From a virus (Duplodnaviria > Caudoviricetes), in the IMG/VR virus record IMGVR_UViG_3300005144_000001, positions 1-43,780 of that record: a stretch of 43,780 nucleotides of DNA; one strand, 5' to 3'. A model generated the notes under the pieces. It ran no database searches. It was given only the letters and a program-made list of their open reading frames with translations, and was not told the DNA's origin. This document shows, in pieces, positions 801-40,500 of the stretch. The translations under genes were made by a program, and so were the position numbers. Within the stretch, counting starts at the first letter, position 1; the number at the start of each line of letters is the position of its first letter.

Positions 801-2807
801 TTAATTCATCTGAGCATGCTTCATTCGCATCAATTCAATTTTCCAATATGACGCTTCATCGAAAAAACCTTTACCAAATTCGCCGTCTAAACTACCGTCA
901 GTCTTAATCTCTAATTTTCTCACTTGCTGCTCATCCTTCTTAATTGAATTTGGATTGTTTAAGTAGTATAATATTATTTTATCGGCCATTGCCTGGGGGG
1001 TACTACTTTTCGCTACCAAATACTGGAATTTTCGTATCAAGTATTCACTGTGGGTTTCAATGAGAAACCAGGTATATGAGCCATACGACAGCATACTCGG
1101 ATCGGTGGAATCACTATATCCGGCCGCATCCATAAACATCTCGGCTAACCTGCTTTGGAAATTCGGATGCAAAAAGGCTTCCGGTTCCTCAAGGATTAAC
1201 ATTTTGGCCTCTGGATCGCCATGCGGCGCTTTATGCAAAATACCGATGCTAGCATCAGGGGCTTCTGCCCTGTCGTAATGGAAGCTGTCAGCAATTTTTA
1301 GTATCAGGAATATCAACTTTGCTTTACCGGTTCCTTCTGTTGCTATATTTACCCATTTGTTGTTTTTGCGTATTTTTAACTGAAAAGCGTCACCCCAATC
1401 GTTCAGTACGATCGCTACCTGGTCGGCCAGTTGAAATTCCTTAAGCCATTTTACAACAAAGCCAATTTTCGTGTCATTATCCCCGAATGTCACCCATGGC
1501 CTGATTTGTTTCAACAAAGTCACAGTAGGACTATTGGAACTGAATTGATAAGTACGGTTGATTTCAACATTTGTCCCATCAAAAAAATCCAGTAAATCAA
1601 GTTCACGTGATATGTATGAAAATACCGTACTTATTAATTGATTGATGTAATTGGCGAAAAGAAATATTGGATCCTCCTCATCCCAAGGGGAAATCACAGG
1701 GAAAAAGTCAGAATGTGAATTGTTTTTAAAGAAATACCCCATGATATACTCATCCAGCATATCATTCATCTCTATATCTGGACCTAGACGAGAAAGACTG
1801 AAATTAAACATAGAGGATCTATGTTTGAAGCTTTTAGAGAATAACTGCTCCACAATTGCTTTCTCCCTTTTCCGGAACAGGTTCAATACCTCGTTGCGTG
1901 TCATATTGAATATCAGATCCAACATTTCGCGCGGAATTTCAGGAACGGAATGTTTGTTCTCTTCAAATAGCGTTCTTAAGGGTTTGTCAGCTTTATCCTT
2001 TAAAAATTCACAAAGCGGATAGTTCCCAATTGTATGGAATCCCTTTGCTTCGATGAATTTTGTTTCTGTTTCCGGCCTCAAGATAGAAAAGTTCACACGA
2101 CCTCCTTCATAGCGTACCTGGTAGTATTTAGACTGCCCGGAGACTTCCGCTACTTCTTCGATGTTGGGATATTCGGGGAAAAGGGCCTGTAACTCGTTAA
2201 TCAGCTCAGAATGTTCACTTTTAGTATAACTGGTAACTACAGAATAAAAGCCTTGATCATACTTCTTACTTAAATCGAGAAAGGCCCGGGCCATTTTACT
2301 CTTTTCGGCAATACTTGAGAAGTATGGCATCAAGTAATCGTAATTGACATCTATTTTAGGATCCTTGTCGTCGAGTCGATCGAAGTTGATTAATTCAACT
2401 GCCGAATCCTTTAGGCGTAACACAATGTTTAGACTGGCCAGCTCCGCTTCTTCCTCCTGTGTTCCTTGTTTATATTTCAGAGAGACTGAAAATTCACCAT
2501 TTTCGACGAAAAAAAACTCATTGAAATCGATAATGTCGATGGAATATTTAAAGAATGGCTCTTTCGCCCTATAATTAAGCACATTTTCGAAGCGCCCCAA
2601 ATCTACGGCGTTCAGATCGAGTTTCCGAAGGGAATCAGTTTCCCACTTTCCATCAGGGCCTTTTTTTAAATTGTTCTTTAATAGCCGTATCGCCTGGGTA
2701 AAACTACTTTTACCAGAGCTGTTCTGGCCCGTTACGATGTTTATCGTTCGGGTGTTGATTGTTGAATCCTTTTCTATTGCTTTAAAGTTTCCTATTGTTA
2801 CCTGCAT
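801..2807 (-). CDS. ABC-type (AAA_15/AAA_21-like) ATPase with DUF3696-like C-terminus, defence-associated
   Basis: N-terminal IGNFKAI, Walker A GQNSSGKS, signature EGTG, Walker B/D-loop LILEEPEAFLHP, H-loop IETHSEY, C-terminal DGSLDGEFGKGFFD. Confidence 0.85.
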   Translation of the reverse strand: MQVTIGNFKAIEKDSTINTRTINIVTGQNSSGKSSFTQAIRLLKNNLKKGPDGKWETDSLRKLDLNAVDLGRFENVLNYRAKEPFFKYSIDIIDFNEFFFVENGEFSVSLKYKQGTQEEEAELASLNIVLRLKDSAVELINFDRLDDKDPKIDVNYDYLMPYFSSIAEKSKMARAFLDLSKKYDQGFYSVVTSYTKSEHSELINELQALFPEYPNIEEVAEVSGQSKYYQVRYEGGRVNFSILRPETETKFIEAKGFHTIGNYPLCEFLKDKADKPLRTLFEENKHSVPEIPREMLDLIFNMTRNEVLNLFRKREKAIVEQLFSKSFKHRSSMFNFSLSRLGPDIEMNDMLDEYIMGYFFKNNSHSDFFPVISPWDEEDPIFLFANYINQLISTVFSYISRELDLLDFFDGTNVEINRTYQFSSNSPTVTLLKQIRPWVTFGDNDTKIGFVVKWLKEFQLADQVAIVLNDWGDAFQLKIRKNNKWVNIATEGTGKAKLIFLILKIADSFHYDRAEAPDASIGILHKAPHGDPEAKMLILEEPEAFLHPNFQSRLAEMFMDAAGYSDSTDPSMLSYGSYTWFLIETHSEYLIRKFQYLVAKSSTPQAMADKIILYYLNNPNSIKKDEQQVRKLEIKTDGSLDGEFGKGFFDEASYWKIELMRMKHAQMN

Positions 2808-2844
2808 AGGGGGATTTTATTATCTCGTATTTCTTTTTTATTGA

Positions 2845-4143
2845 TTATATTTCTTCTTCTGCCCAATCCCGCACATCAATTTTCCCGGTGACGGCTTCCG
2901 AAATCAGGGATTGACGGTAGAGTTTGAGTTTGTCGATTGACTGCCTCAATTTATGTATCACCTGTTCTCCATATTGTTCTTTCTCGTCGAGATAGTCAAC
3001 AATTTGGTTTTGTTCAGCTATTGACGGAAATACGATGGATGTGTTAGCAAGAAAATCTATTTCAACACTTTCAACAGTAGCACCTTGCTTCACAATCTCA
3101 TTAAGTAGATTTAGTTCATTTCCTTTAATGAAATAAAACAAGTAATTAGAAGATACTCTGCCCCTAGAAGTGAAAGCTTTAATGTCTTGATTAACGGTGA
3201 CAGGTGTTCCTGTTATTGCGATTGGAATTGTACGTTGAAGTATTCCAGAACGAACTACCATTAAAAGATTGCCCTCATCAATTAAGTTCGTTGTAGAATT
3301 TGCCAAACCTTCATCTGTGATAAAGTCTTCGGTAGTAGTAATTAGGTCAACTTTCATGTCTTTTGGAGAAACCCAAGGAATTGTTCCATTCCAAAATTCA
3401 TCTTCCTGTTTATTGGGTGTTCCACCACCAGTTATTTCAAATAAATGCTTCAGTTTCACCACTTCCCAATGCTCCGGAATTTCTCCCAACCACTCAATGC
3501 CACTTTCTTTCATCGTAGCATTTGGATTTAAGCCTTTGGTTACGGCCTCGTTAATGATGGCCTGGCGTTGCAGCCTGAGCTTTTCAATGAGTTGTTCTTT
3601 TTTCTCAATCAACGCATCGATTTGTGCGGTTTTGTGGTCGAGAAAAGAGGCGATGGTGGTTTGTTCAGAAGGAGAAGGAACCGGAACCTTTAGATTATTT
3701 AAAAATTCTGAGTTTGCCCGAGGCATTTTGGCTCCATATGTAGAAGAATTAACTGCATCAATAAAGTTTGGTGACAACAATAATTTATGGAAAAAATGAT
3801 TGCTATTACTTTCATTACACCTGAATACCAGAAATTCAGTCGAACAAATGCCTTCTTTTTGTGCAAGAAATACTTTTGCTAAGTATGGTCTCAATTTTCC
3901 GAAAAGTATATCTCCCTCTGTGAAATAATTGGCTAGTCCCTCTGCTTCAGAATCTGTAACGATATACCTACCTGTACCAGATTCAATGTTTTCCATTCCA
4001 GTATACGTCAGCTTAGAATCTTGGCTCAAAACTTTGTTATTAGTTAAACTGACCTCGTATTTGAGTTTATTTAATTCCCAGTGTTCAGGAATCTCCTTTA
4101 ACCAATCAATCCCACTATCCTTATATTTTTCGTACTGCTTCAT
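2845..4143 (-). CDS. hsdS: Type I restriction-modification specificity subunit
   Basis: Two TRDs with repeated conserved blocks (YKDSGIDWLKEIPEHWE / MKESGIEWLGEIPEHWE; PSPSEQ / PSIAEQ; INEAVTKG / ISEAVTGK). Coupled to hsdM. Confidence 0.95.
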   Translation of the reverse strand: MKQYEKYKDSGIDWLKEIPEHWELNKLKYEVSLTNNKVLSQDSKLTYTGMENIESGTGRYIVTDSEAEGLANYFTEGDILFGKLRPYLAKVFLAQKEGICSTEFLVFRCNESNSNHFFHKLLLSPNFIDAVNSSTYGAKMPRANSEFLNNLKVPVPSPSEQTTIASFLDHKTAQIDALIEKKEQLIEKLRLQRQAIINEAVTKGLNPNATMKESGIEWLGEIPEHWEVVKLKHLFEITGGGTPNKQEDEFWNGTIPWVSPKDMKVDLITTTEDFITDEGLANSTTNLIDEGNLLMVVRSGILQRTIPIAITGTPVTVNQDIKAFTSRGRVSSNYLFYFIKGNELNLLNEIVKQGATVESVEIDFLANTSIVFPSIAEQNQIVDYLDEKEQYGEQVIHKLRQSIDKLKLYRQSLISEAVTGKIDVRDWAEEEI

Positions 4144-5966
4144 TATGCCAACAGATCTTTTAATAGGTCAACAATTCCTTTTTCACCGGTTTCCGGATTG
4201 CCATATTCCAGAACTTTAATGTCTTCGGCAATGGTTTCGGAGCTTTCCAAACCTTTGTACTGGTAGAAATACTTGGTGAAGTTGATTTCGTATCCAATGC
4301 GGGTTTTGTCGATGTCCATCCAGGCATCGGGTACATGGGGCAATACTTCGGCTTTAAAATAGTCGTCAATATCAGCCGTTAAGGGCACGTTTTCCTTGTC
4401 ACGTTTTTTACTGTCGGGTTTGGGATTACCCTTTTTGTCGGTTTGTACGCGGCCTTTTTTGTCATGCAGCGGTTGTTCAATGGTCAACTGGTAGTAACCA
4501 AAGTAGTCGTTGTCGAATATTTTGCAGTATTCACCTTCCTCAAAGTTGTTGTAGATTTCGGTAATCTGCTCAATATACTGGTCCTCAATTTTATTGCGTT
4601 TGTTACCCAGACTTTTCTTTTCGGGATTGGCAAAAATGAACTCTGTTTTTTTGCTGCCGTTGGTGCCTTTTTCGATATTCGCAGCGGCATTAATTAGCTG
4701 TACTTTGCCTTTGCGGTGAGGTGCTTTTTTGTTGGTGATGAACCATATGTAGGTGTTAATACCTGTGTTGTAGAAGAGGTCCTTGGGCAGCGAAATAATG
4801 CATTCGAGCCAATCGTTTTCAACAATCCATTTGCGGATTTCGCTTTCACTGCTACCAGCGTCGCCGGTGAAAAGGGGAGAACCGTTGGTAACCACTCCAA
4901 TCCGACTGCCTTCCCGTTCCATTTTGGAGATCATGTGTTGCAGGAACAACAGCTGGCCATCACTGGTTCGTGGCAGCCCGGCATAAAAACGTCCTGCCGG
5001 ATTTAAGGCTTCGTTTTGGATGTACTTTTGATCTTTTTTCCAGGAAACTCCGTAAGGAGGATTGGCCATCATGTAGTGGAAATGTTTTCCTGTAAACTGA
5101 TCGTCGGAAAACGAGTTGCCGTATTTGATGTTGTTGCCATCTTCACCGGTAATCAGCGCCTCTGATTTGGCAATGGCAAAGGATTGCTCGTTGATTTCCT
5201 GACCATAGGTTTTTATCACGGGTTTATGGTCATTGTCTGCGAAGAGCACATCTTCAATGTACTTTTTGCCCAGGTTGACCATCCCACCGGTACCGCAGGC
5301 CGGATCGAATATCGTTCGGATTGTACCCGGCTGGCTGAGTTCTTCTTTTTCCGGTGCAAATATGATGGCATTCATCAGTGCAATCACATCACGGGGAGTA
5401 AAGTGCTCTCCGGCTGTTTCGTTGCTCTGCTCGTTTGAGATACGGATGAGTTCCTCAAACACATATCCCATTCCGTGATTGTCGATCTTATCGTTATGGA
5501 GGTTCACCCGACAGATGGCATCAATCATCTCGTAGAGCAACTTATTCTTAATTAAGCGGGCAACGATTTTATCGAACTGAAAGCTTTCCAGGATATCGCG
5601 CACCTCCAGGTTAAAGCCATTCAGGTAATTGTTGAAATTAATTTCGATGTTACGCGGATCGTCCTTTAAGGAAATTAAGGTATGTTTTGAGGTGTTGTAA
5701 AACTTCAGGCCCCCGGCAGCTTTACGCAGAATCGGATCGAGTTTATCTTCGGCCACTTTATCGTGAAAATTGTTGTAGGCCTCACGCACCTTTTCGTTTG
5801 CATTCTCTAAAATGCAGTCCAACCGCCGAATCACGACAAAGGGTAAAAGCACATCACCAATTTCGTTCTTCTTGAAGGCATTCCACAATACATCGTTGGT
5901 AATTTGCCAGATGAATCCGACTTCTACTTTGTGGGTATTGTTGGTATTGTTTGTTTCGTTACTCAT
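4143..5966 (-). CDS. hsdM: Type I restriction-modification N6-adenine methyltransferase subunit
   Basis: GEHFTPRDV, SAM-binding FDPACGTGG, catalytic ANPPYG, LFYNTGI, C-terminal GYEINFTKYFY. Confidence 0.95.
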   Translation of the reverse strand: MSNETNNTNNTHKVEVGFIWQITNDVLWNAFKKNEIGDVLLPFVVIRRLDCILENANEKVREAYNNFHDKVAEDKLDPILRKAAGGLKFYNTSKHTLISLKDDPRNIEINFNNYLNGFNLEVRDILESFQFDKIVARLIKNKLLYEMIDAICRVNLHNDKIDNHGMGYVFEELIRISNEQSNETAGEHFTPRDVIALMNAIIFAPEKEELSQPGTIRTIFDPACGTGGMVNLGKKYIEDVLFADNDHKPVIKTYGQEINEQSFAIAKSEALITGEDGNNIKYGNSFSDDQFTGKHFHYMMANPPYGVSWKKDQKYIQNEALNPAGRFYAGLPRTSDGQLLFLQHMISKMEREGSRIGVVTNGSPLFTGDAGSSESEIRKWIVENDWLECIISLPKDLFYNTGINTYIWFITNKKAPHRKGKVQLINAAANIEKGTNGSKKTEFIFANPEKKSLGNKRNKIEDQYIEQITEIYNNFEEGEYCKIFDNDYFGYYQLTIEQPLHDKKGRVQTDKKGNPKPDSKKRDKENVPLTADIDDYFKAEVLPHVPDAWMDIDKTRIGYEINFTKYFYQYKGLESSETIAEDIKVLEYGNPETGEKGIVDLLKDLLA

Positions 5967-5999
5967 TTTTTATTTGAACTCGTTGTTTCGTTGACAATG

Positions 6000-6035
6000 C
6001 AAAGATAGATTTTATGTGTGCAGTGGAGGTGCATA
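6000..6035 (-). promoter_or_regulatory. Bacteroidetes -7 promoter box plus palindromic operator upstream of hsdM
   Basis: Minus-strand TATCTTTG (6000-6007) matches TAnnTTTG. TGTGCA-N7-TGCATA at 6017-6035 lies 9 bp from the box. Confidence 0.6.
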
Positions 6036-6037
6036 GG

Positions 6038-7003
6038 TTAATTAAAGCTTAAATATCCAGAATCTAGGTCACCCTCAACACCATCATTCTTCATACAGAA
6101 ATCTATTATTGCTTGTACATCTTTTATAGCTTCATCGGCTTTTACATGATTATCATAACGCACTAAGCTTTTTATATTTAATTCTTTCCCTTTTGTTATT
6201 TTGTAACCCTTTGCAAAATAATTGAAGGAGTTTCCTGAATATCGTAAGTAATTCGTGATAATTGTTCTATCGTGCTCTTTATTTGTTTTAACAAAGGTTA
6301 CTTCTGATTTCTTCCCGGTAACTTTCTTAATTCTTTCTTTTATTCTTTCTCGAATATCTTCTAATTCATACCTAATTTCAGCGGGTGCTACTACTATTAC
6401 GATATTTATTTTTGATTTACTTTTTGAGCAAATTGCATCTAACCAAGTCAATAAGTTTTCCTCTATTACATCACACTCTGGTCTTTTTTCTTTAAGTAGG
6501 TACGGGTCAATAATAATTATATCAGTCAGCGGTAATGAAAAACATTTAATGTCATTCCATGTAGCAAATTCATCAGAGCCAATTCTTAAATCTTTCTCAA
6601 AGATGTAATCATCATGTTGCAGAAAAAGACTTTTAAATATATCTATTTCGTCACCAGGCATTCCGACTAAAACAGCTCCAGTTTCTTTGAAAACTGATGC
6701 ACGTTCATCATCCAATAGATAAACTGCACTAAGTTGTTCTCTAGTGAAATTATTGTGAGTATTTGATTTTAGGGGACGTTCAGGAAATGATGTATTCCAT
6801 TCTGATGCCAATGAATCTCCGACGCCTTCCGTAAGAGCAGGGAGCAGAGGGAGTAATTGCTTCTCCTCAAGAAGTTCGCCTTTGTCAAAATTAAATTTTA
6901 TGTTTAGTTGTCTCTTTAGAAGCTTTAAAGAATCCTGAAATAAGGGATTATCTTTAGACTTTACAAAAGAGATTAAGTTGGCCTTATCAATGTATAAATC
7001 CAT
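6038..7003 (-). CDS. PLD-like (DPY...HDR) putative nuclease, partner of ATPase
   Basis: IIIIDPYLL and EHDRTIITNY...GNSF motifs resemble MIT_C/PLD-like domains. Paralogous to 1-798; starts 2 bp after the ATPase stop. Confidence 0.7.
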   Translation of the reverse strand: MDLYIDKANLISFVKSKDNPLFQDSLKLLKRQLNIKFNFDKGELLEEKQLLPLLPALTEGVGDSLASEWNTSFPERPLKSNTHNNFTREQLSAVYLLDDERASVFKETGAVLVGMPGDEIDIFKSLFLQHDDYIFEKDLRIGSDEFATWNDIKCFSLPLTDIIIIDPYLLKEKRPECDVIEENLLTWLDAICSKSKSKINIVIVVAPAEIRYELEDIRERIKERIKKVTGKKSEVTFVKTNKEHDRTIITNYLRYSGNSFNYFAKGYKITKGKELNIKSLVRYDNHVKADEAIKDVQAIIDFCMKNDGVEGDLDSGYLSFN

Positions 7004-7005
7004 GT

Positions 7006-8592
7006 TTACAATATTTCAAAAGCTAATTTTGTTGATACATCAAAAAAACCAGAGCCAAATTCATCCTTAAACTTGCCATCTTTGCGATACCTCATTTGAT
7101 ATGGACCTTTCTTGTCAAAATAGTAAACGACAAATGGTAGTTCCTTAACGTTTTCTTTGGTATATAGCTCTTTAACTCGTAATTGGGATTTTCGTAATAC
7201 ATATTCAGAATGAGTTTCAATAATAAATCGAATACCGAAGTTATCATATGCGTCAAAAAATAATTCAGTAAGTTCTGATTGTAATGCCGGATGTAGGTTA
7301 GCCTCTGGTTCTTCAATCATTATTATTGTTTCCCTTCTTCTTAAAGATCTTGTGAATTCGAGAAACCTGTTTCTCTCTGTCTGCTCATCAATTTTAAGTG
7401 CAATGGAGAGAAGAATAGTAAATATTTGACCAGCGCCAAAACCTTTGTCAACTAAGTTTATAGGGGTTTCATTTTTTTTATCATCATCTGTTTCATATAT
7501 GTGAATCATGCTAGCGATACCTTCCACTGGTTTGATATTATAATCTACTCCAATATCAAATCTTTCCATCCATATTTTGAGAAATTTTCCAGCTTTACTG
7601 GCTTTTTTTATAGGTTTCTGGGAGTGCTTACTTATTAAATCGTATATGTCGTTAGTATGTTCATCAATTATATATAATCTTGTCTGACTGTTTCTATGCG
7701 GACTCAAATGTTCCACGGTAAATTTCAATGCACTTGATATTTTTTCAGATATTCGCATTAATGATAAGTGTGTGTTTCGGTCGTTGTAATTACCTAAGTT
7801 CTTTTCATTCTCTCTGAAGTATTTTATTAAGCTAACGCGAATTATTCTGTCTATTACGGGCAATCCATCCCTTAAGTCTTCCATCTCAAAAATTGGAGAA
7901 AAGAGAAAAATATCTTTGGGTTTTTCTTTTTCTCCAGATAGCTCTTTGATTTTGGCAATTATTTCTTTTTTGGTTTGCTTCTGCTTATTTAATTGTTCCT
8001 TAAGTCTAATTTGGTTTCTTGTTTCCTGTTCATTTGCTAGCTTATTTTCAGTACGTTTAATAAGTCCTTCGATTCTTACTTTGTTTCTCTTAAGACTTTC
8101 AATTTCTTTTGATAAGTTACTGCGTCCTGTTTCAATAAAACCATCATCTACAGTGATTTGGAATTTTTCCTCTTCCAAATGCTCCATTTCAAACCAAGAA
8201 CCGTCGCTAATTCGTTTTATATTAATAAATTCTAAAAATCCACTCTGAATTTTTTCTGTTTTTCTCAGCGGTTGAATTAATGGGCGGAACCTTAGTGTTG
8301 TTTCAAAATCGTCATTATCAAAGCTAAACTCGATTTCATGTTTACCCTCTTTAAAGTTGTTCCAATTTGCTGCATTTTGGTAGCAATCGACTTTGTGATC
8401 CCATTTATTTTCGCCTCTGAAGCTTAACTCTAGGTGGTTATCGGACTGTCCATAATCGCTTAAAATCATTAAAGCTTTTAATATTGACGATTTGCCTGAA
8501 TTGTTAGGACCAGTAAAGAAGGTGATGGGACCTAATTCTATTTCCCAAGATTCTTTTACTTTACGGAAATTGGTAACTTTAATTCGTTTCAT
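7006..8592 (-). CDS. ABC-type (AAA_15/AAA_21-like) ATPase with coiled-coil insert and DUF3696-like C-terminus
   Basis: VTNFRKV, Walker A GPNNSGKS, signature KGFG, IMIEEPEANLHP, IETHSEY, DGKFKDEFGSGFFD. Confidence 0.85.
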   Translation of the reverse strand: MKRIKVTNFRKVKESWEIELGPITFFTGPNNSGKSSILKALMILSDYGQSDNHLELSFRGENKWDHKVDCYQNAANWNNFKEGKHEIEFSFDNDDFETTLRFRPLIQPLRKTEKIQSGFLEFINIKRISDGSWFEMEHLEEEKFQITVDDGFIETGRSNLSKEIESLKRNKVRIEGLIKRTENKLANEQETRNQIRLKEQLNKQKQTKKEIIAKIKELSGEKEKPKDIFLFSPIFEMEDLRDGLPVIDRIIRVSLIKYFRENEKNLGNYNDRNTHLSLMRISEKISSALKFTVEHLSPHRNSQTRLYIIDEHTNDIYDLISKHSQKPIKKASKAGKFLKIWMERFDIGVDYNIKPVEGIASMIHIYETDDDKKNETPINLVDKGFGAGQIFTILLSIALKIDEQTERNRFLEFTRSLRRRETIIMIEEPEANLHPALQSELTELFFDAYDNFGIRFIIETHSEYVLRKSQLRVKELYTKENVKELPFVVYYFDKKGPYQMRYRKDGKFKDEFGSGFFDVSTKLAFEIL

Positions 8593-8596
8593 ATTG

Positions 8597-8632
8597 CAAT
8601 ATTATTTGCGACCTGTGCATTCAATCTTCACA
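8597..8632 (-). promoter_or_regulatory. -7-like promoter box plus palindromic operator overlapping the WYL stop codon
   Basis: Minus-strand TAATATTG (8597-8604, one mismatch to TAnnTTTG). TGTGCA-N7-TTCACA at 8614-8632 has the same 9-bp spacing as at 6000-6035. Confidence 0.55.
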
Positions 8633-9640
8633 AGTGGAATATTTTTCTTTTAGTGTTTCAATTCTCTTTGCAATTGACTCTCTTAGAATCTGAGGTTCGA
8701 TCACTTCTATTTGCTCACCGAAGGACAGTATCAGGGCTTCCAATTCATAGTTCAATTGAACTTCCAACTCAATTAGAGAAAAAAACCGGTCGGTGCTCTT
8801 TACCTTCTGTGAACCATGAATAGGCTTAGACGCAATATACGGGAAAAGGTCTGCATCTACCTTCAAGATTACTTTTTGAGGTTTCTGGTCTGGATTCACG
8901 GAAACACCAACTACATCCTCAAAGTACTCGGAGAAGTCTATTTCAGTATTCGGGATATATTTCAATGGGCTCTCTTCTATTTGTTGAATCCGATCGAGTG
9001 CTAAATTGGTCAGATTACCATATTCATGATTTCGTCCAAACAAAAACCAACGGTTATTATATTGCTTTAAGTGGTAGGGGTGAATGTCGAAAACCAAATC
9101 TTTATCAGCCTTGTATGGCCTGTATTGAATCTTCAGAGCTACTTTGTTGACAATTGCATTGTATATTTTGCCAATGTGTTCTTTACCCTTCAAATAAGGG
9201 TTTTCTTCAAAGCTGATTAAAGTTTCCTCCGTCTTTAAATGAAAGGTTTGCTCCAGACGGGCTTTTATTTCTTCTACCCATTCGAATTGGGGCATCCCCT
9301 TAAAACGGGAGAGTGTAAGTAGCGATTCTTTTAGTTGTTGGGCTTCCTGCTCATTGAGTGGTTGACTGTTGATGGAAAATTTTATGTCGGTATAGCGATA
9401 AAAAGCTTTTCGGCCATCCTTAAAAGATTCAACAGGAGCATTGAAACCTTTTGAATCCCGCATGAAATTAATGTCTTGATAAATCTGGCGCCGTCTAACG
9501 CCGGAAGAACCGGGGGCAATGTCCCATAACGCTTCGTTGCAGGCTTTGATTAAATCGTCGATGTAATATTTTCGTCCCGGGTTACGGAAACATCTATCTA
9601 AAGCCTGGTATCTTATGGTTGCGTTTTTGTTGGTTGACAC
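8621..9640 (-). CDS. WYL-domain transcriptional regulator (HTH-WYL-WCX, BrxR/CapW-like role)
   Basis: N-terminal HTH (IRYQALDRCF...RRQIYQDINFM), WYL core HPYHLKQYNNRWFLFG...LALDRI, WCX tail ILSFGEQIEVIEP. Likely start is GTG 9640; the ORF track extends it to 9691. Confidence 0.9.
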   Translation of the reverse strand: MSTNKNATIRYQALDRCFRNPGRKYYIDDLIKACNEALWDIAPGSSGVRRRQIYQDINFMRDSKGFNAPVESFKDGRKAFYRYTDIKFSINSQPLNEQEAQQLKESLLTLSRFKGMPQFEWVEEIKARLEQTFHLKTEETLISFEENPYLKGKEHIGKIYNAIVNKVALKIQYRPYKADKDLVFDIHPYHLKQYNNRWFLFGRNHEYGNLTNLALDRIQQIEESPLKYIPNTEIDFSEYFEDVVGVSVNPDQKPQKVILKVDADLFPYIASKPIHGSQKVKSTDRFFSLIELEVQLNYELEALILSFGEQIEVIEPQILRESIAKRIETLKEKYSTCED

Positions 9641-9852
9641 GGTTATACCTTTAGTTTTCTGGTCGTTGTTAGATTCGAGTATAAAAACCACTTTTATTGT
9701 TTGTCCAAATTAATAAAGAAAACATAATTTGAGGTGATTGTTGAGGGGTTTTATGAAACAAATAGGTAGTGGACTAAAAGCAGAATACAAATCATACTTT
9801 ATGTTAATATGTCTGTTTAGTTTTGTGGGACTAGATAAAAACTAAAATTTAA

Positions 9853-10490: not shown

Positions 10491-11345
10491 ATGCCAACAT
10501 TAAAACAACTTGCTGAAAAGAAACCAACTCGCAACGACAGGCCATCACGAAAGCTGGTTCTTGACCATAAAACACTGCTCTTTCAGCCCGGAAAAATTAC
10601 CGTGGTAGGTTCACGCCCTGGGATGGGACGTACTCTGTTAATGCTTTACCTTTTCTCTTTGTTACATAAACAAAACAGCGGCCTTCAGCATCATTATATT
10701 ACCAACGAGGAAGAGGCTGAAGGACTGTATCAGAAGCTGTTCTCTACCGTTACCGGCCTGAATTATCAGATGCCATTGGTTCAGCGGAACCAGGTGATAT
10801 TCGAACATCCGGTTTTATTTAGCGACAAGGTAGGTATTTCCGCCATCCAGGTAAGTTGGGAAAACCTGAAAAGCAGCCTGGAAGAAAAGCTCAAGAAAGA
10901 ACCAATCGACTTTTTATATCTCGACAAAATACAGGGGATGTTTTCGGAAAAATCATTCCGCAACCGGGAGCAGGAGTTACACCATATCATCAGTGAACTC
11001 AGGATCATGAGTCAGAAATACCAAATCAGCACTATTATTGCGTCCTCCCTGAACCGGTTTGTGGATAACCGCACCGGTCGCCGGCCGTACCTTTCTGACC
11101 TTCGCGATACCGGTGCTCTCGAGGACCTGACGGACCTCATCCTTTTGCTTTTCCGTCAGGAGTATTATGGCTTTACTGAAGACGAGTATGGAAACAATCT
11201 GGAGGGAGTGGCCGAAGTAAGCATCGCGAAGAACCGGATGGGCGAAACCGGTACTATCCGATTGAGTTTTGATAAAAATGCCCCATGTTTTAAACCCTAT
11301 GAAGGGAGTACTTTCAGTTTTACTGACGAGTTCAGAAGATTATAA
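10491..11345 (+). CDS. Stand-alone DnaB-like helicase C-terminal (RecA-fold) domain, degenerate
   Basis: GSRPGMGRT (Walker A K->R), FLYLDKIQ (Walker B), ASSLNR (vs LSQLNR), RPYLSDLRDTGALEDLTD, IAKNRMG. Only 284 aa, with no N-terminal primase-binding domain. Confidence 0.85.
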   Translation: MPTLKQLAEKKPTRNDRPSRKLVLDHKTLLFQPGKITVVGSRPGMGRTLLMLYLFSLLHKQNSGLQHHYITNEEEAEGLYQKLFSTVTGLNYQMPLVQRNQVIFEHPVLFSDKVGISAIQVSWENLKSSLEEKLKKEPIDFLYLDKIQGMFSEKSFRNREQELHHIISELRIMSQKYQISTIIASSLNRFVDNRTGRRPYLSDLRDTGALEDLTDLILLLFRQEYYGFTEDEYGNNLEGVAEVSIAKNRMGETGTIRLSFDKNAPCFKPYEGSTFSFTDEFRRL

Positions 11346-11351
11346 ACCCAT

Positions 11352-11499
11352 GAACCACTGTCCTACAAAGACCATGTGTGTAACCGTTAAAAAGTTATGC
11401 AGTTGGATTGTGTTCCGCAATCTGTAATGCACCAGGAAGCAGCGACTTTTTCTCATACTTCGCAAAAGTCGGCCAAAGAGATGGTTGGGACAGTGGTTT
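11352..11499 (+). ncRNA. Retron msr-msd non-coding RNA
   Basis: Perfect 11-bp a1/a2 inverted repeat AACCACTGTCC (11353-63) / GGACAGTGGTT (11488-98), extended by ACCAT/ATGGT. Internal hairpins GATTGTG-ttc-CGCAATC (11406-22) and CGACTTTT (11443-50) / AAAAGTCG (11464-71). Lies directly upstream of the RT. Confidence 0.8.
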
Positions 11500-11515
11500 T
11501 TTTTAGTCAACAGAG

Positions 11516-12478
11516 ATGAATTATACCTTAGAAGAAAAGAAAAGTCTGGCAGCGAGATTCCTTGAATTGCGCACTGTTCCCGGTTTTTTATTACTGATGG
11601 ATATCTCATTGCCCTATCTGAAAGGGATGGTTCGGCACCCTTTGTATAAGGTCTGGCAAATCACCAACAAAAAGGGAAAGAAGAGAAACCTGTGTGAACC
11701 TTCCTGGTACCTGAAATTAAAACAGAAGCAATTGAATACCTATCTAAATGCAGTTTACTTTGACATTATACCGGAAAGTACCTATGGCTTTATCAGAAAG
11801 CCAGTAGACGGGACAGAGAGACGGGATTTTTTGATTAATGCAGCACAACATTGCGGGCGGCCTTTTGTCATCAATGCGGATATTCGGAACTTTTTTGACT
11901 CCATCCAACCACGACAAGTACGAGATGTCTTCCTGAAAGCTCCTTTCCATTTTGATGAGGAACTGGCATCGGCTATCGCATTCTTTTGTTTGAACCGACG
12001 AACATTGCCAACCGGGTCGCCTACATCGCCTATCTTGTCAAACTTCATCATGCTGGAGGTTGATCGACAATTGCAAGCATTAGCGAGTCAATACCAATAT
12101 ACTTACACCCGGTATGCGGATGATCTGACTTTTTCCGGAGAGGAACGCCCCCCAGCTGAATTCAAAAGACAACTTACAGCGATTCTGAGCACGCATGGTT
12201 TTCGGCTGAACCAACGGAAATACCGGGTACTATCGCGATTTGGCAGGCAAACGGTCACGGGCATTGTCGTGAATGAAAAACCTAATGTTAATCGAAAATA
12301 CAAAAAAGAGGTTCGGGCCATGCGGTACGACTGGAAGACTTACGGAGCCGAAGTAGCGGCCCGGAACCATTACAAAAACCCGGATATTGATGACAACCAG
12401 GTTGAACGGTTCAAACGGACGGTAGAAGCCAGGGAACAATATATCAGACAAGTAGAAACCTTAAATCGAAAAAAATGA
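11516..12478 (+). CDS. Retron-type reverse transcriptase
   Basis: Region X NAAQH, ADIRNFFDSI, LPTGSPTSPILSN, YTRYADDLTFS, region Y QTVTGIVVN; 320 aa with no fused domain. Confidence 0.92.
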   Translation: MNYTLEEKKSLAARFLELRTVPGFLLLMDISLPYLKGMVRHPLYKVWQITNKKGKKRNLCEPSWYLKLKQKQLNTYLNAVYFDIIPESTYGFIRKPVDGTERRDFLINAAQHCGRPFVINADIRNFFDSIQPRQVRDVFLKAPFHFDEELASAIAFFCLNRRTLPTGSPTSPILSNFIMLEVDRQLQALASQYQYTYTRYADDLTFSGEERPPAEFKRQLTAILSTHGFRLNQRKYRVLSRFGRQTVTGIVVNEKPNVNRKYKKEVRAMRYDWKTYGAEVAARNHYKNPDIDDNQVERFKRTVEAREQYIRQVETLNRKK

Positions 12479-13233
12479 ATCGAATCAATTCACTGAAAAA
12501 GTTAGTAGCAGACCTTAAATCAAGCAATGAGAAAAATGAGTTCAAGTATATTGGAACGGGTAATCCCAATGCCGATATCTTGATTATCGGGAAAGAGGCG
12601 TCCATCCATCAAAATGATAAACAGAAAGAATGGGAAATCGATAATAATCTGGAAGACTGGTATGACCTCACTGAAGAAGACTCTCTACCGAAGATTGGTC
12701 AATGGCCTGAAACCAAATACTCGCCATTATATCCCTACAAAGGACAGAAATTCAATATCGACCGTGGAACAAATAACGGTGGTACGAGTCCGACCTGGTA
12801 CAACTACCAAAAGCTCATCAACCGGATTTATCCGGAGAATAACGATTCCCAAATTAACTTTCACGAAAAAGTATTCATCACCGAAGTGAATTCTACCCCC
12901 AGTTTAAAAACGACAGAAGCTGACATGACATCTATTTCTTTTAGAAAGAAAAAAGTATTGTCGTCAGATTTCTTTCAGTCTTTTCCTGTTGTTATTGTCT
13001 CAGGATTAGGCTATTTCGACATTCAGGAGGGACGAAATGAGATTGAGGAAATATTCGGGGTGAAGTTCCAGCGTGAGGAACACCCGAATGGAAAAAAGAC
13101 TCAACAGTATTTTTACCATGAAGCTGAAGATGGTCGGAAAATTCTCATTAACACACGGCAATTAGGTATGGTTGTTTCCAATGCCAGACTCGATATGATG
13201 GCAAAAGAAATCAAGAATTTTATTTCTGAGTAA
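12475..13233 (+). CDS. Uracil-DNA-glycosylase-superfamily-like protein (candidate retron effector)
   Basis: N-terminal YIGTGNPNADILIIGKE resembles UDG motif A; the C-terminal HPS motif is replaced by NTRQL. ATGA overlap with the RT stop. Confidence 0.5.
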   Translation: MNRINSLKKLVADLKSSNEKNEFKYIGTGNPNADILIIGKEASIHQNDKQKEWEIDNNLEDWYDLTEEDSLPKIGQWPETKYSPLYPYKGQKFNIDRGTNNGGTSPTWYNYQKLINRIYPENNDSQINFHEKVFITEVNSTPSLKTTEADMTSISFRKKKVLSSDFFQSFPVVIVSGLGYFDIQEGRNEIEEIFGVKFQREEHPNGKKTQQYFYHEAEDGRKILINTRQLGMVVSNARLDMMAKEIKNFISE

Positions 13234-16021: not shown

Positions 16022-17251
16022 TTAGTCGAACGCGGAAAACACCGCTTCGATTACTCTATCGTTGGCTTCATCAACGATTTTGTAGTCTTCGTTCACATAG
16101 ATGTCAGTTGTTGTTTTCTGACCGTGCCCCAGGGCCCTTCTTATGTCGTCCATGGGTAACCTGCACACGTTTCGGGCGATGTTGGCCCAGGTGTATCGCG
16201 CCCAGTAGGTGGTAATCGGACCAATTTCCAATTCTTCTCCGATTTTCTTCAGCCACTTGTTTTGCGTTTTTGTAATGTATTTATGGTGGTTGCTCAATTC
16301 GATGAAGCGAAGCAAATGTGATTCTCCTTTGTATTTTTCCAACAGTGGCTTTAATCGGTCATGTATTTTCAGGTTGTATTTACGACCGGTTTTAGATCGA
16401 GTGTACTTTAAGCGTCCATTCTTAATATCTTCTTCCGTGAGATGGACGAGGTCAATCACATTAATTCCAACCAGCATTAAATTAATTAGGAAAAAGTCTT
16501 TCGCTACCTGTCGGTACTCATCTGGAGCCTGGTAGCTCGCGAATTTATGCATCTGTTCCAGAGACATGTCCAGATAGTCCGTTTCCTCTTTTTTTATTTT
16601 GTATTTCTTAAAAGGGTAATATTTTCCATATTCGAGATAGTCCCATTCGTAAGCCTTGTTGAAAACAGCCCGGATGTTCCGCATGTGAATGGAAATGGTA
16701 TTCACCGAATTTCCCAGGCTACTGAGATTAAAAAAAAGAGCTTCCAGGAATTGAGGTGTAATTTCGGAGAAAGGGATATCGGTCTGAGCATATCCCCATA
16801 AAGTCTCACGCGTCCATTGGTAAATCTGTGCGGTTCGGTTTTCCTTTTTAATGCCAGCCTTGTTTTTAACATTCTTGTTCAAACGGTCAATATACTCATC
16901 AATGACGGCAAAGAAACTAATTTCATCTGTTTCACTTTGTGGGGTAGAAGCTTCACCGATGTATTCGATGATTTGCTCGATGGTGAGGAATTTGCTCGGA
17001 GTTTTAATGGAAGCAATAATTTCTTCCACGTGCACTTTAATGGTCGAAAGTGCCATATTTAACTCCTGCGCTTTTGGATGCCTGACGACACGTCCGCTTT
17101 TAAACTGCGAAGGCTTTACATAAACATCAGTCGGAATCTCCCGACGAAAGCTTTTTGAGTCATTAATGGATTTATGGGTAATTCTGACTTTTACATTCGT
17201 GGTACCGTCTTTCAGGATTCGGTCTCTCACAACTAAGGAAACGCTTGCCAT
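16022..17251 (-). CDS. int: Tyrosine recombinase/integrase, Bacteroidetes type
   Basis: N-terminal arm-binding domain, SAM-like SVNTISIHMRNIRAVFNKA, GINVIDL, RSKT, YWARYTWA, ALGH, TTDIY. Adjacent to the tRNA fragment. Confidence 0.92.
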   Translation of the reverse strand: MASVSLVVRDRILKDGTTNVKVRITHKSINDSKSFRREIPTDVYVKPSQFKSGRVVRHPKAQELNMALSTIKVHVEEIIASIKTPSKFLTIEQIIEYIGEASTPQSETDEISFFAVIDEYIDRLNKNVKNKAGIKKENRTAQIYQWTRETLWGYAQTDIPFSEITPQFLEALFFNLSSLGNSVNTISIHMRNIRAVFNKAYEWDYLEYGKYYPFKKYKIKKEETDYLDMSLEQMHKFASYQAPDEYRQVAKDFFLINLMLVGINVIDLVHLTEEDIKNGRLKYTRSKTGRKYNLKIHDRLKPLLEKYKGESHLLRFIELSNHHKYITKTQNKWLKKIGEELEIGPITTYWARYTWANIARNVCRLPMDDIRRALGHGQKTTTDIYVNEDYKIVDEANDRVIEAVFSAFD

Positions 17252-17406: not shown

Positions 17407-17415
17407 CCAAATCTG

Positions 17416-17462
17416 TCGGGGTGACAAGATTTGAACTTGCGACCCCTCGCCCCCCAGACGAA
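17416..17462 (-). other. 3' half of tRNA-Pro(GGG) = attachment site (att core)
   Basis: Minus strand TTCGT-CTGGGGG-GCGAG-GGGTC-GCAAG-TTCAAAT-CTTGT-CACCCCG-A gives the anticodon arm, T arm and 3' acceptor strand. The 5' acceptor strand and D arm are absent. Confidence 0.85.
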
Positions 17463-37519: not shown

Positions 37520-40500
37520 TTAATATTTTCTGTAATCATTAGGGAATTTGACGTTCTTATATTTGGTGTAAAATCTCTTAGATGCTTGGTTTATCTTGTT
37601 TTGTAGCTCTGGTATTTCACTACTCAGTCCATCATCCATGTACTTTTTTAAAGTCTCTTTAAGCTTCGTTATCTCACGGTATGATGCAATCATCTGTCTC
37701 GCCTTGCTGTAATCAGGGTCATATAGAAGTTTAGATAACCTGCCCGTATCATCTGAATGCTTGGCATCATTAACTACCCGAACGTATATACTTGCATCCT
37801 TAAGCATGTCGCTTGCCTTTTTGGGGTAATCTGTGGCCTCTACATGCTCGGTTGATACGTGGAACCCTACGCCATGAGATATAGCCTGAAATCCATCTAA
37901 ATCGCCTTGCAAGTAAGCTAGGCCATTCTGTAAAGGTGATGGGATTAATCCACGAGCCTGAGCGAGTACGAATGATGGCAGCTCACCCCACTGGACAGAT
38001 CCATTCTCCCCGGGTGCCGCATATTTGTTTAGATGACCTTCGAGTTTTCCACCTTTAGGATCGCCAACTCGTATGCCTTTTGATTTAATGCTGTAAGGAT
38101 ATACCCCTTTATCGTCCAGGCCGGTAATTTCTTCAATGTCTGTGAATCTCTTTCCCTGCCAGTTTTCTCCGGTGAACAAACCTTCAATGACTAGCTTGGT
38201 CAGTACGCTTGATTTATGCTGAGCTGATGTTAGTGGGTCCAAAATCCATTTTACCGGGTCCTTGAAGTGTCCTGCAATACTAAAATAGTCACGCTCGTTG
38301 TCCTGCATATTTTCTGCTCCGACAATAGCTTTCTTTATTGGAGTGATATTGACATCCAAAAAGTGAGCTTTTATTGCAAGCTCTCTTAGCGAGTTCATCA
38401 TTTCAAGGAATGAGGAATCAGACCAGTCGGTATCTAGTATAGGCTGAATTGTTTCCCTGTACATTCTGTGAACCGTATCCCAATACTTCTCATTATCTTC
38501 TTCGTTAAAGAATGCCATAGCCAGATTAGCGGCCACGGATGTGAACATTACCCGGATGACAGCTCTCAGCCAGAATTTTCGGTAAAGCTTGGCTTCCTCT
38601 TTCTCCATCCACTTCTTACCCTTTTCACGCGAATAGTCATATCCAAATGCTTTAATCAGTGTCCGGAAGTTTGATTCAGTCCAGTCAGGAGCAAGCATAA
38701 TCAGACGCATGATGTGTTGAATTGCCGGGTTACGGCCAATACGTCCAAGGTGAAGATCACCGAAGTCGTCATTTGCCAAGTTCGAGGCCCATTTTGCAAG
38801 TACGTTAGGGTTACGGTCCGGATACTTAGCTAACAGGTGTTCGTATTCAAGAACTGCAGCTTTAACCTTCAATCCTGCTCCATAGTGTTTGAATAGGAAA
38901 TCTGTATGTGCCTTATGCAAGGCTACCATCTTATCCTTTGCAACTTTGGTTAGATTTGACTTGTCCAGTAATCGGCTGATTGTATTCGGCTGAGTAACTA
39001 ATGTTTCATTCCAGTCCTGAATATCACCAACGGTTAGGCCATTTTTTAGAAGTATCTCAACCTCTGGAGTCATCGCCATGTACATTCTTAATCCATCCTT
39101 GTATGATGCACGAAGATTGACATTACGCGCCTTTATTGCTCCACCCCATAGGAATGAGCGAGAAAATGCCATATGGTGAAAGAATGAATAAGACAGGATG
39201 ATGCTTTTCGCTACTGCATTGAATTTCGTAAGGCCTTTTACTCCCGGTATCTCATTTAGAATTGACCTACCAAGTGTGTTATTAAGCTTTTGTGCGATAG
39301 GTGCCGGTGCATAAACAGGCTTCTTCTCGATCACAGTACCATCGGATAGTATTGCATAATTCTCTCCTTGATGGTCTTTTGTTGATTCAACATTTTTAAC
39401 CGGAACCCACCTCTTGAAATTAGGATGCTTTACCTCTTTGTATCCGGGAAGATGTGCGGTAGTAAAAAGAGATGTGCCATCTTTCGTTTTTATACTCAGA
39501 CCTGCATCTAACAATCGTTTGTTTTCGATTACGTTATTGATTTCCTGTTTAAGTACAGCCAGATTATTGGTGGCACCCTCTACTTTGAGTTCATATCCTT
39601 TCGCCCATCCTTCGATTATACTACCAAGGGTACGCTGCTTGGCGTGTCGCGTACTGGTTCCAAACTTATTCCAGAAGTCGTTAAGGCCTCCACTTCCAAG
39701 GTCCCATGCTCTTGAAACGTAGTTATCCAGTATGTTATGGATAACCCCCTCTTCGAGTGATAGTTTACCGAATTCATCATATGCCTTCCTTATTTTAGCC
39801 GCTATGTCAAGCTGATCGGGAGAAAGGTTTTGAGCTATTTCGACAATCCTTTTCTTTTCTTCATCCAAAATAGGTTTGTACATCTCGGCATGAGAAGGAT
39901 TCTGTTGCATATCAAGGTAAACATGAATAGCCCGGTCCACATCGCGCCAGTTTGCAGGCACGTTGGATGAATTAGTCTTAACAGACTTCTTTATTTGCGA
40001 CTGCAAATCGGCTGATTCAATGTTTGCAAGTGCCTTCTTGTAGTCTCTGGCTCCATGCCAGGTGTCTTCCAGTGAATCGAATATGCGCTTAACTTCATGT
40101 GGCATATTGGGCTTCATGTCATCGATGCTTTTTAGTTCATCGCTCCATGACTTAACGGCACTGGCGTACTCAACTTCATTGGCAAAATCCTTTTTCTTAG
40201 GCCTTTTCTGGAATTTTAGATGCTCGTCAATGTCGATAGAGTTATCATCGAACACAACGTAGTTATATGATCCTTCATGGCTTCCCTTGCTATTGTATTC
40301 AGACGGATACTGTATCCCATCGATACCTGAGTCCAACAGGAATTGAGAAGCTTCTTTGTCTGAATGTAATACCTTTTCTATCGATTTGTACAGGTCCCCT
40401 CCATTGTCTTTTACTCCACGGAAGTCCTGACCTTCATTGACGCGGATAGCAAATGTTACATCCCCGGCATCCTTTACGTCTTTAATTTCATAGCCTGCAT

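What the first reader, a model, noticed from the sequence alone, without database searches (positions are those of the whole stretch)
10491..13233. Candidate new retron type: DnaB-like domain - msr/msd - RT - UDG-like protein
Seen: a retron-class RT (NAAQH, YADD, VTG) with a well-formed ncRNA directly upstream, co-oriented with a stand-alone DnaB C-terminal domain gene ending 7 bp before the a1 repeat and a UDG-like ORF overlapping the RT stop (ATGA). The module sits next to a WYL/RM defence operon. Known: retrons are tripartite anti-phage systems with effectors such as ATPase+HNH, TOPRIM, NDT, PRTase, TM, cold-shock, HTH, HEPN and protease. I do not recall DnaB_C or UDG-fold partners among the classified types. 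Inference: this is a defence system in which msDNA is held by a ssDNA-binding RecA-fold ring and gates a glycosylase-like or helicase-poisoning effector.
Basis: partly seen in the sequence, partly recalled or inferred. Interest (0 to 1): 0.88.

Follow-up and report, generated by a model that had tools for sequence, protein, structure and literature searches.

The report
Retron paired with a crippled helicase
This is a retron (a bacterial element that usually makes a small single-stranded DNA for phage defence) whose relatives carry a shortened, often catalytically damaged DnaB helicase gene just upstream that is predicted to bind the reverse transcriptase and likely acts as its toxin; the pairing was noted in one 2026 computational paper, and the glycosylase-like gene downstream is likely an unrelated neighbour.

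Summary
The sequence features are all real. The conserved unit has two genes, not three: DnaB_C, msr/msd RNA, RT. DnaB_C lies directly upstream and co-oriented in 37 of 228 RT loci and in 14 of 14 in-clade loci from a fresh 401-genome sample. An RNA model built without the window finds its ncRNA. The UDG-fold ORF is real but was beside none of 256 RT loci, and none of its 41 homologue loci held an RT; it is most likely a stand-alone Brig-like glycosylase. The RT-DnaB_C pairing is in print, untested, as TXI_noncan_h (Toro 2026, PMC13712802). New here: the helicase gene is upstream, not downstream as published; it lacks the N-terminal domain; 40 of 45 aligned homologues have Walker A K-to-R or catalytic E-to-D against 0 of 38 phage DnaBs; and a model docks a lineage-specific C-terminal tail on the RT (0.75 against best control 0.53). 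Best reading: an msDNA-gated pseudo-helicase that poisons replication (0.45). No msDNA, toxicity or defence is shown.

The parts
10491..11345 (+). DnaB C-terminal-domain protein (284 aa), no N-terminal primase-binding domain; Walker A K-to-R (R47), sensor Q-to-S (S186), catalytic E73 kept, ssDNA loop R205/D206/G208 and finger K247/R249 kept; C-terminal tail 275-284 predicted to dock on the RT
   Evidence: Pfam DnaB_C E 7.7e-38; motif tables; complex model
11352..11499 (+). msr/msd non-coding RNA of the retron
   Evidence: Model built from 30 other loci hits 11348-11503; covariation across 35 loci
11353..11363 (+). a1 arm of the closing helix
   Evidence: 11-nt perfect inverted repeat; 10 of 10 pairs of this helix show a change on both sides
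11371..11376 (+). inner helix 5' strand (pairs with 11481-11485) ending in the predicted branching G11376
   Evidence: G invariant in 35 of 35 aligned RNAs; the window has two C-G pairs where most of the family has U-A
11406..11422 (+). conserved msr hairpin, likely the RT-recognition stem
   Evidence: 100% of cells paired, 3 of 6 pairs with a change on both sides; role inferred
11443..11471 (+). msd hairpin (8-bp stem), template of the predicted msDNA stem
   Evidence: Inverted repeat I3; two low-depth contigs of run X2 show the compensatory pair A11445G / T11469C
11488..11498 (+). a2 arm of the closing helix, 17 nt before the RT start
11516..12478 (+). retron reverse transcriptase (320 aa), type XI-like, no fused effector
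   Evidence: PADLOC best hits RT-Protease_XI 253 bits, RT-Toprim_I-C 247, RT-TIR_XII 244, RT part only; 70 residues after VTG; tree
12475..13233 (+). UDG-fold protein (252 aa), probably a stand-alone antiviral glycosylase and not a conserved part of the retron
   Evidence: Fold; absent from 256 RT loci and its 41 homologue loci lack an RT; GC 38.7% against 44-45.5%

Best explanation
A two-gene retron in which the reverse transcriptase likely copies the adjacent msr/msd RNA into a short branched msDNA and is predicted to hold the truncated DnaB-like protein by its C-terminal tail, so that the DnaB-like protein would be an inactive toxin that likely blocks DNA replication once a phage disturbs the msDNA. 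Shown here: gene order, co-inheritance, RNA structure and the motif substitutions. Predicted: priming from G11376, an msDNA of about 45-60 nt with one hairpin, and the RT-tail interface. Inferred: a protein that keeps its DNA-gripping loop and ring contacts but has lost the primase-binding domain, and often a catalytic residue, would clamp on fork ssDNA or enter mixed rings with host or phage DnaB and stall replication (abortive infection). The UDG-fold gene downstream is most likely a separate defence glycosylase that landed in the same transcript.
For: DnaB_C directly upstream and co-oriented in 37 of 228 RT loci, all in one clade; the 4 in-clade loci without it have the RT within about 200 bp of a contig end. 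Fresh sample: 14 of 14 in-clade loci, one being a locus already held. RT and DnaB_C tree distances correlate, r = 0.82, 34 loci (shared ancestry alone can give this). No conserved downstream gene and no C-terminal RT fusion, so DnaB_C is the only candidate effector. K-to-R in 9 and E-to-D in 31 of 45 aligned homologues against 0 of 38 phage DnaBs; the two changes sit on different branches. The ssDNA-loop Arg is kept in 45 of 45 and the finger Lys in 45 of 45; these match E. coli R403/E404/G406, K440/R442 and E262 as named in PMC6391071 (passages). Complex model 0.75 against best control 0.53; this mark was reached by 116 of 157 solved and 2 of 215 mismatched pairs; runs agree in at least 80% of contacts, partner pLDDT 80-82. 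The docking tail pattern is in 37 of 49 retron-type and 0 of 43 ordinary DnaBs, and RT position 156 of the groove is Leu in 32 of 37 clade RTs but mostly Gln/Gly/His in 119 fused RTs.
Against: No msDNA, toxicity or defence data exist. The model clears the required margin narrowly (0.22 against 0.20), used my own alignments, and lacked the RNA/DNA. The tail pattern was defined after seeing the model and matched only 6 of 13 new loci (3 could not be parsed). Catalytic change is common, not universal: 5 of 45 in the first set and 4 of 13 new loci keep both K and E, with 1 ambiguous, so relaxed selection fits too. 14 of the 45 aligned homologues have no genomic context. Three related loci (L110, L114, L128) have DnaB_C and RT nearly abutting with no RNA hit, and L059 has none. 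That K-to-R and E-to-D cripple DnaB-family ATPases and give dominant-negative subunits is recalled; searches for a source gave nothing usable. One phage DnaB nests inside the retron DnaB_C clade.
Confidence: 0.45

Rival explanations
1. DnaB_C is a decoy sensor, not the toxin: it baits phage helicase loaders or helicase inhibitors that bind the DnaB C-terminal tier, and the RT-msDNA complex relays the signal or simply soaks up the phage protein.
For: Lambda P binds the DnaB CTD and linker helix (PMC6391071 passages), the part that is kept here. A decoy needs no catalysis, which fits both substituted and intact members.
Against: No conserved downstream effector exists to receive the signal. The protein is only about 30% identical to DnaBs, a poor mimic. 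My search for such a system found 0 papers.
Confidence: 0.2
2. DnaB_C is a non-toxic accessory that binds, protects or unwinds msDNA for the RT; the element acts without abortive infection or with an effector encoded elsewhere.
For: ssDNA-binding residues are the best kept; predicted RT contact; some basal members keep an intact ATPase site; many loci sit among housekeeping genes.
Against: Characterised retrons need no helicase to make msDNA (recalled). Sister clade-8 retrons carry an effector fused to the RT (PMC7736814) and this RT has none, so DnaB_C fills that slot.
Confidence: 0.15
3. One reading: a three-protein system in which the retron gates the UDG-like ORF as effector, at least in the short-DnaB_C sub-branch to which the window belongs.
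For: ATGA overlap couples ORF3 to the RT. One row of the 2026 paper's Table S2 lists WCX;UDG;DnaB_C beside a Bacteroidota retron RT (not fetched, and a Pfam-detectable UDG, unlike ORF3). Run X2 holds pieces of the RNA, RT and ORF3 at 80-95% identity. The context of the closest RTs (47-50% identity, P0122-P0125) could not be fetched.
Against: 0 of 228 and 0 of 28 RT loci carry an ORF3 homologue; 0 of 29 viral loci (mostly copies of one or two lineages) and 0 of 12 genome loci of ORF3 carry an RT or DnaB_C. ORF3 homologues sit alone beside WYL, OLD/UvrD (Gabija-like), SIR2 and AbiH genes. No X2 contig bridges RT and ORF3. GC differs.
Confidence: 0.1

Closest known systems
TXI_noncan_h, DnaB_C-associated protease-less type XI-like retrons (Toro 2026, mSystems, PMC13712802; bioRxiv 10.64898/2026.05.14.725207)
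   Same: Protease-less type XI-like RT with X and Y motifs, separate DnaB_C gene, upstream ncRNA, mainly Bacteroidota, some Cas-adjacent relatives. Three contigs in my clade (L053, L036, L037) are rows of its Table S2 with DnaB_C as neighbour.
   Different: The paper puts DnaB_C mostly downstream; in all 50 loci I read (37 plus 13 new) and in the window it is upstream. Its methods order genes by coordinate and L053 is a reversed contig whose listed order confirms this. In the passages and sections read it does not mention lost catalytic residues, the missing N-terminal domain, a branching G or an RT interface. The window is a shorter K-to-R sub-branch with a WYL gene two genes away.
Clade-8 retrons types XI (RT-protease), I-C (RT-Toprim, Ec67) and XII (RT-TIR) (Mestre 2020, PMC7736814)
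   Same: Best PADLOC and NCBIfam matches of the RT domain.
   Different: Those carry the effector fused to the RT C-terminus; this RT ends 70 residues after VTG and has a separate upstream partner.
Bacterial and phage DnaB replicative helicases
   Same: RecA-fold C-terminal domain, Walker B, ssDNA loop and arginine finger.
   Different: No N-terminal domain (284 aa against about 450), Walker A Arg, sensor Ser, extra C-terminal tail.
Brig1, Brig2, Brig3 antiviral DNA glycosylases (PMC11078745; bioRxiv 10.1101/2025.10.29.685425; 10.64898/2026.02.25.707755), for ORF3
   Same: UDG fold without a Pfam hit, about 250 aa, in defence islands; the same best structural match as Brig1 (S. tokodaii UDG, 4ZBY).
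   Different: No sequence comparison with Brig proteins could be made; substrate unknown; the family is mostly Bacteroidota, whereas Brig1 homologues are mostly Actinobacteria.

Membership tests
Retron | RT with region X (NAxxH), YADD and region Y (VTG) | tested here: met
   N108-AAQH, Y200-ADD, V247-TG; retron models are the top hits
Retron | msr/msd RNA with a1/a2 helix and a branching G | tested here: met
   Independent model hit; 94.6% of cells paired, 18 of 22 pairs change on both sides, above all shuffles and slid controls; invariant G in 35 of 35. Computational only.
Retron | Makes branched msDNA | not testable with these tools
   Needs expression and gel or sequencing
Retron | Anti-phage activity through an RT/msDNA-gated effector | not testable with these tools
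   Only co-occurrence and a structure model
TXI_noncan_h (Toro 2026) | Type XI-like RT without protease fusion | tested here: met
   Best PADLOC hit RT-Protease_XI over the RT part only; 320 aa
TXI_noncan_h (Toro 2026) | Separate DnaB_C gene next to the RT | tested here: met
TXI_noncan_h (Toro 2026) | Placement in the paper's monophyletic lineage | tested here: inconclusive
   The window groups with three contigs that Table S2 lists as type XI with DnaB_C (support 0.92-0.98), but the table rows seen carry no sublineage label and the tree file was cut. Five other DnaB_C rows are labelled I-C3.
TXI_noncan_h (Toro 2026) | ncRNA matching the paper's own covariance model | not testable with these tools
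   Their model and figure are not held; my own model was used
TXI_noncan_h (Toro 2026) | No WYL gene within two genes (reported for 29 loci; descriptive, not a criterion) | tested here: not met
   A divergent WYL gene is two genes upstream here and in L059; formal membership is therefore left open
Canonical type XI retron | RT fused to a C-terminal trypsin-like protease | tested here: not met
   No domain after the RT
DnaB replicative helicase | N-terminal primase-binding domain | tested here: not met
   No PF00772 hit; below all NCBIfam DnaB cut-offs
DnaB replicative helicase | Walker A Lys, catalytic Glu, sensor Gln | tested here: not met
   R47, E73, S186
UDG superfamily (ORF3) | UDG alpha/beta fold | tested here: met
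Family-4 UDG (ORF3) | Fe-S cluster cysteines | tested here: not met
   The 252-aa protein has no cysteine
Brig antiviral glycosylases (ORF3) | Sequence kinship to Brig1-3 and excision of modified phage bases | not testable with these tools
   No Brig sequence or structure came up in PADLOC, Pfam or PDB searches

The most novel reading that the evidence does not exclude
A retron has turned the bacterial replicative helicase itself into its weapon: a primase-blind, ATPase-crippled DnaB ring, leashed to the RT by a newly evolved C-terminal tail and plugged by msDNA, is released on infection to jam host and phage forks. It would be a retron effector taken from the core replication machine, and crippled twice by different substitutions.
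Probability: 0.4. Interest if true: 0.8.

Novelty: new member of a known kind. Interest (0 to 1): 0.5.

Why it matters
This retron lineage is not rare (13 of 400 sampled genomes of one Bacteroidota class), is unclassified in the 2020 scheme and has no experimental study in the searches made. The one paper on it calls the role of DnaB_C unclear. The results here make that question testable: they name the branching G, the catalytic positions that are altered, and a ten-residue tail and RT groove to mutate. They also correct the published gene order. If DnaB_C is the effector, it is a new way for a retron to stop a phage. ORF3 is a separate candidate for a new antiviral glycosylase family.

Full report
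Observation. The window is a 43,780-base virus record. The RT's best models are types XI, I-C and XII, over the RT part only, and it ends 70 residues after VTG. A divergent WYL gene, two AAA ATPases and type I M and S genes lie upstream.

The conserved unit. Scans with an alignment of close RTs returned 228 loci (the genome and metagenome scans stopped at 7 and 6 of 64 parts and kept the best 80 each). 38 had a DnaB_C hit; one (L101) is a distant gene on the other strand and was set aside, and the other 37 have it directly upstream on the same strand; some are near-duplicates. These RTs and the window's form one clade (support 0.975 with five basal RTs that lack a DnaB_C hit, two of them beside Cas1; 0.92 without them). 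The four in-clade loci with no DnaB_C have the RT within about 200 bp of a contig end. A fresh sample of 401 genomes of one Bacteroidota class gave 28 RT hits, 14 in the clade, all 14 with DnaB_C upstream and co-oriented; one was a locus already held. RT and DnaB_C tree distances correlate (r = 0.82, 34 loci, 0 of 2000 permutations; shared descent alone can give this). No downstream gene recurs beyond close pairs.

The RNA. Thirty intergenic regions, the window left out, align with an a1/a2 helix, an invariant G and a conserved hairpin. A model built from them hits the window once, at 11348-11503 (33 bits, E 3.8e-4), and 11 of 13 new in-clade loci at E up to 0.05, against none of 14 out-of-clade loci at that level. 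On 35 aligned RNAs, 94.6% of cells pair and 18 of 22 pairs change on both sides, above all 500 shuffles and all slid controls. Two of the three helices were in the model and so lean that way; the inner helix was not, and 5 of its 6 pairs change on both sides, the window supplying two C-G pairs. The G after it (11376) is invariant in 35 of 35 and is my prediction for the branch point; the msDNA would be about 45-60 nt with one 8-bp hairpin. Two low-depth contigs of run X2 show a compensatory pair in that hairpin. L059, L110, L114 and L128 gave no RNA hit.

The DnaB_C protein. Most clade members are about 350 aa and the window's sub-branch 284-316 aa, against about 450 for DnaB; the N-terminal domain is missing. 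Of 45 aligned homologues (the window, 30 with or from locus context, and 14 database proteins without context), 9 have Walker A K-to-R and 31 catalytic E-to-D; 38 of 38 phage DnaB representatives keep both. The window and its 8 closest homologues all have K-to-R and sensor Q-to-S; E-to-D marks the other branch. Against a simple reading, 5 of the 45 keep both residues, and of 13 new loci 8 are substituted, 4 intact and 1 ambiguous. The ssDNA-loop Arg and the finger Lys are kept in 45 of 45. Residue roles follow PMC6391071 (passages); the effect of these substitutions on hydrolysis is recalled, not sourced. One contig length (8573) is shared by a close RT and a close DnaB_C record, a weak hint that they are neighbours.

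Predicted contact. A complex model of RT and DnaB_C scored 0.75 against a best control of 0.53; the mark was reached by 116 of 157 solved and 2 of 215 mismatched pairs, the counts hold only roughly with my alignments, the runs agree in at least 80% of contacts and partner pLDDT is 80-82. The margin is just over the bar. DnaB_C residues 275-284 sit on RT residues 148-156 and neighbours. A tail pattern defined afterwards occurs in 37 of 49 retron-type and 0 of 43 ordinary DnaBs, but in only 6 of 13 new loci (3 unparsed); RT position 156 is Leu in 32 of 37 clade RTs and mostly polar or Gly in 119 fused RTs. This supports binding and does not show it.

ORF3. It has 248 homologues at E up to 0.001, mostly Bacteroidota where named. 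Its model (pLDDT 92.6) has the UDG fold, with the same best match as Brig1 (PMC11078745, passages), and it has no cysteines for an Fe-S cluster. It was beside 0 of 228 and 0 of 28 RT loci, and 0 of 29 viral (mostly copies of one or two lineages) and 0 of 12 genome loci of its own family hold an RT or DnaB_C. Its homologues sit by WYL, OLD/UvrD, SIR2 and AbiH genes or among unrelated genes. Its GC is 38.7% against 44-45.5%. For a link: the ATGA overlap, one Table S2 row with WCX;UDG;DnaB_C, and unbridged pieces of RNA, RT and ORF3 in run X2. I read it as a stand-alone Brig-like glycosylase (about 0.75 that it is independent of the retron's function).

Mechanism. With no fused or downstream effector, DnaB_C fills the effector slot that protease, Toprim and TIR domains fill in sister retrons (PMC7736814, passages). 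I commit to an msDNA-gated pseudo-helicase that stalls replication when released (0.45). Rivals are a decoy for phage helicase loaders (0.2), a non-toxic msDNA accessory (0.15) and the three-gene model (0.1). Gene order, co-inheritance, RNA structure and substitutions are shown; msDNA, binding, toxicity, trigger and defence are predicted or inferred.

What is known. Toro 2026 (PMC13712802: abstract, sections 10, 14, 15, 16 and 20, passages, 25 of 34 'dnab' places of Table S2, Table S5; bioRxiv version: passages) describes TXI_noncan_h, 29 protease-less type XI-like loci, 20 with DnaB_C, with a predicted ncRNA and no experiments; 'glycosylase' and 'UDG' do not occur in its main text. Three of my contigs are in its table. 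It reports DnaB_C mostly downstream, but genes were ordered by coordinate, and for the reversed contig L053 the listed order puts DnaB_C at +1 although it is upstream. Searches found no other paper on this pairing in the library held, which lacks most subscription journals. The Dag/Brig2 preprint was read in passages and the Brig3 preprint in abstract.

Verdict. A real retron and a new member of a lineage described once, computationally; not a new three-gene type. The added value is a corrected gene order and a specific, testable pseudo-helicase model. Interest 0.5.

Noticed in passing
window 17415-17461 (- strand): 3' half of a tRNA-Pro gene (likely att core) between the integrase (16022-17251) and the phage lysis and structural genes; depth is about four times the flanks in run X1. 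The retron is either prophage cargo or in a tandem island at the same tRNA; not resolved. One X2 contig joins 13372 to 17410 (weak, 34 letters on one side).
   Followed up: partly
L114:3126-4951 (also L110, L128): DnaB_C and RT overlap or nearly abut with no ncRNA hit between them; the RNA may lie upstream of DnaB_C, where GC-rich hairpins occur, or be lost.
   Followed up: partly
L059:3298-4692; L376, L377, L380: Longer DnaB partners (420-464 aa) with degenerate motifs in some, possibly intermediates that still carry an N-terminal domain.
   Followed up: no
L065, L104: RTs basal to the clade lie directly before Cas1 (and after Cas6 in L104) and lack DnaB_C; they may be CRISPR-associated RTs derived from this retron branch.
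   Followed up: partly
L001-L029 (match at about 4947-5651): An ORF3 homologue sits in a variable cargo slot of a widespread prophage family after the lysis genes, beside AbiH and changing neighbours: a likely defence hotspot.
   Followed up: partly
window 801-9691 (- strand): WYL, AAA ATPase, a 321-aa ORF with no family (6038-7003), type I M and S, and a second AAA ATPase; no HsdR within the window. Weak PADLOC hits to NsnB, AriA and MADS parts.
   Followed up: no
window 37520-43753 (- strand): 2077-aa protein with Helicase_C and a weak ART-PolyVal match (polyvalent-protein-like) beside a P22-like portal gene.
   Followed up: no
P0126, P0131, P0136, P0137: Close RT homologues with a conserved C-terminal extension of about 115 residues and no extra Pfam domain.
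   Followed up: no
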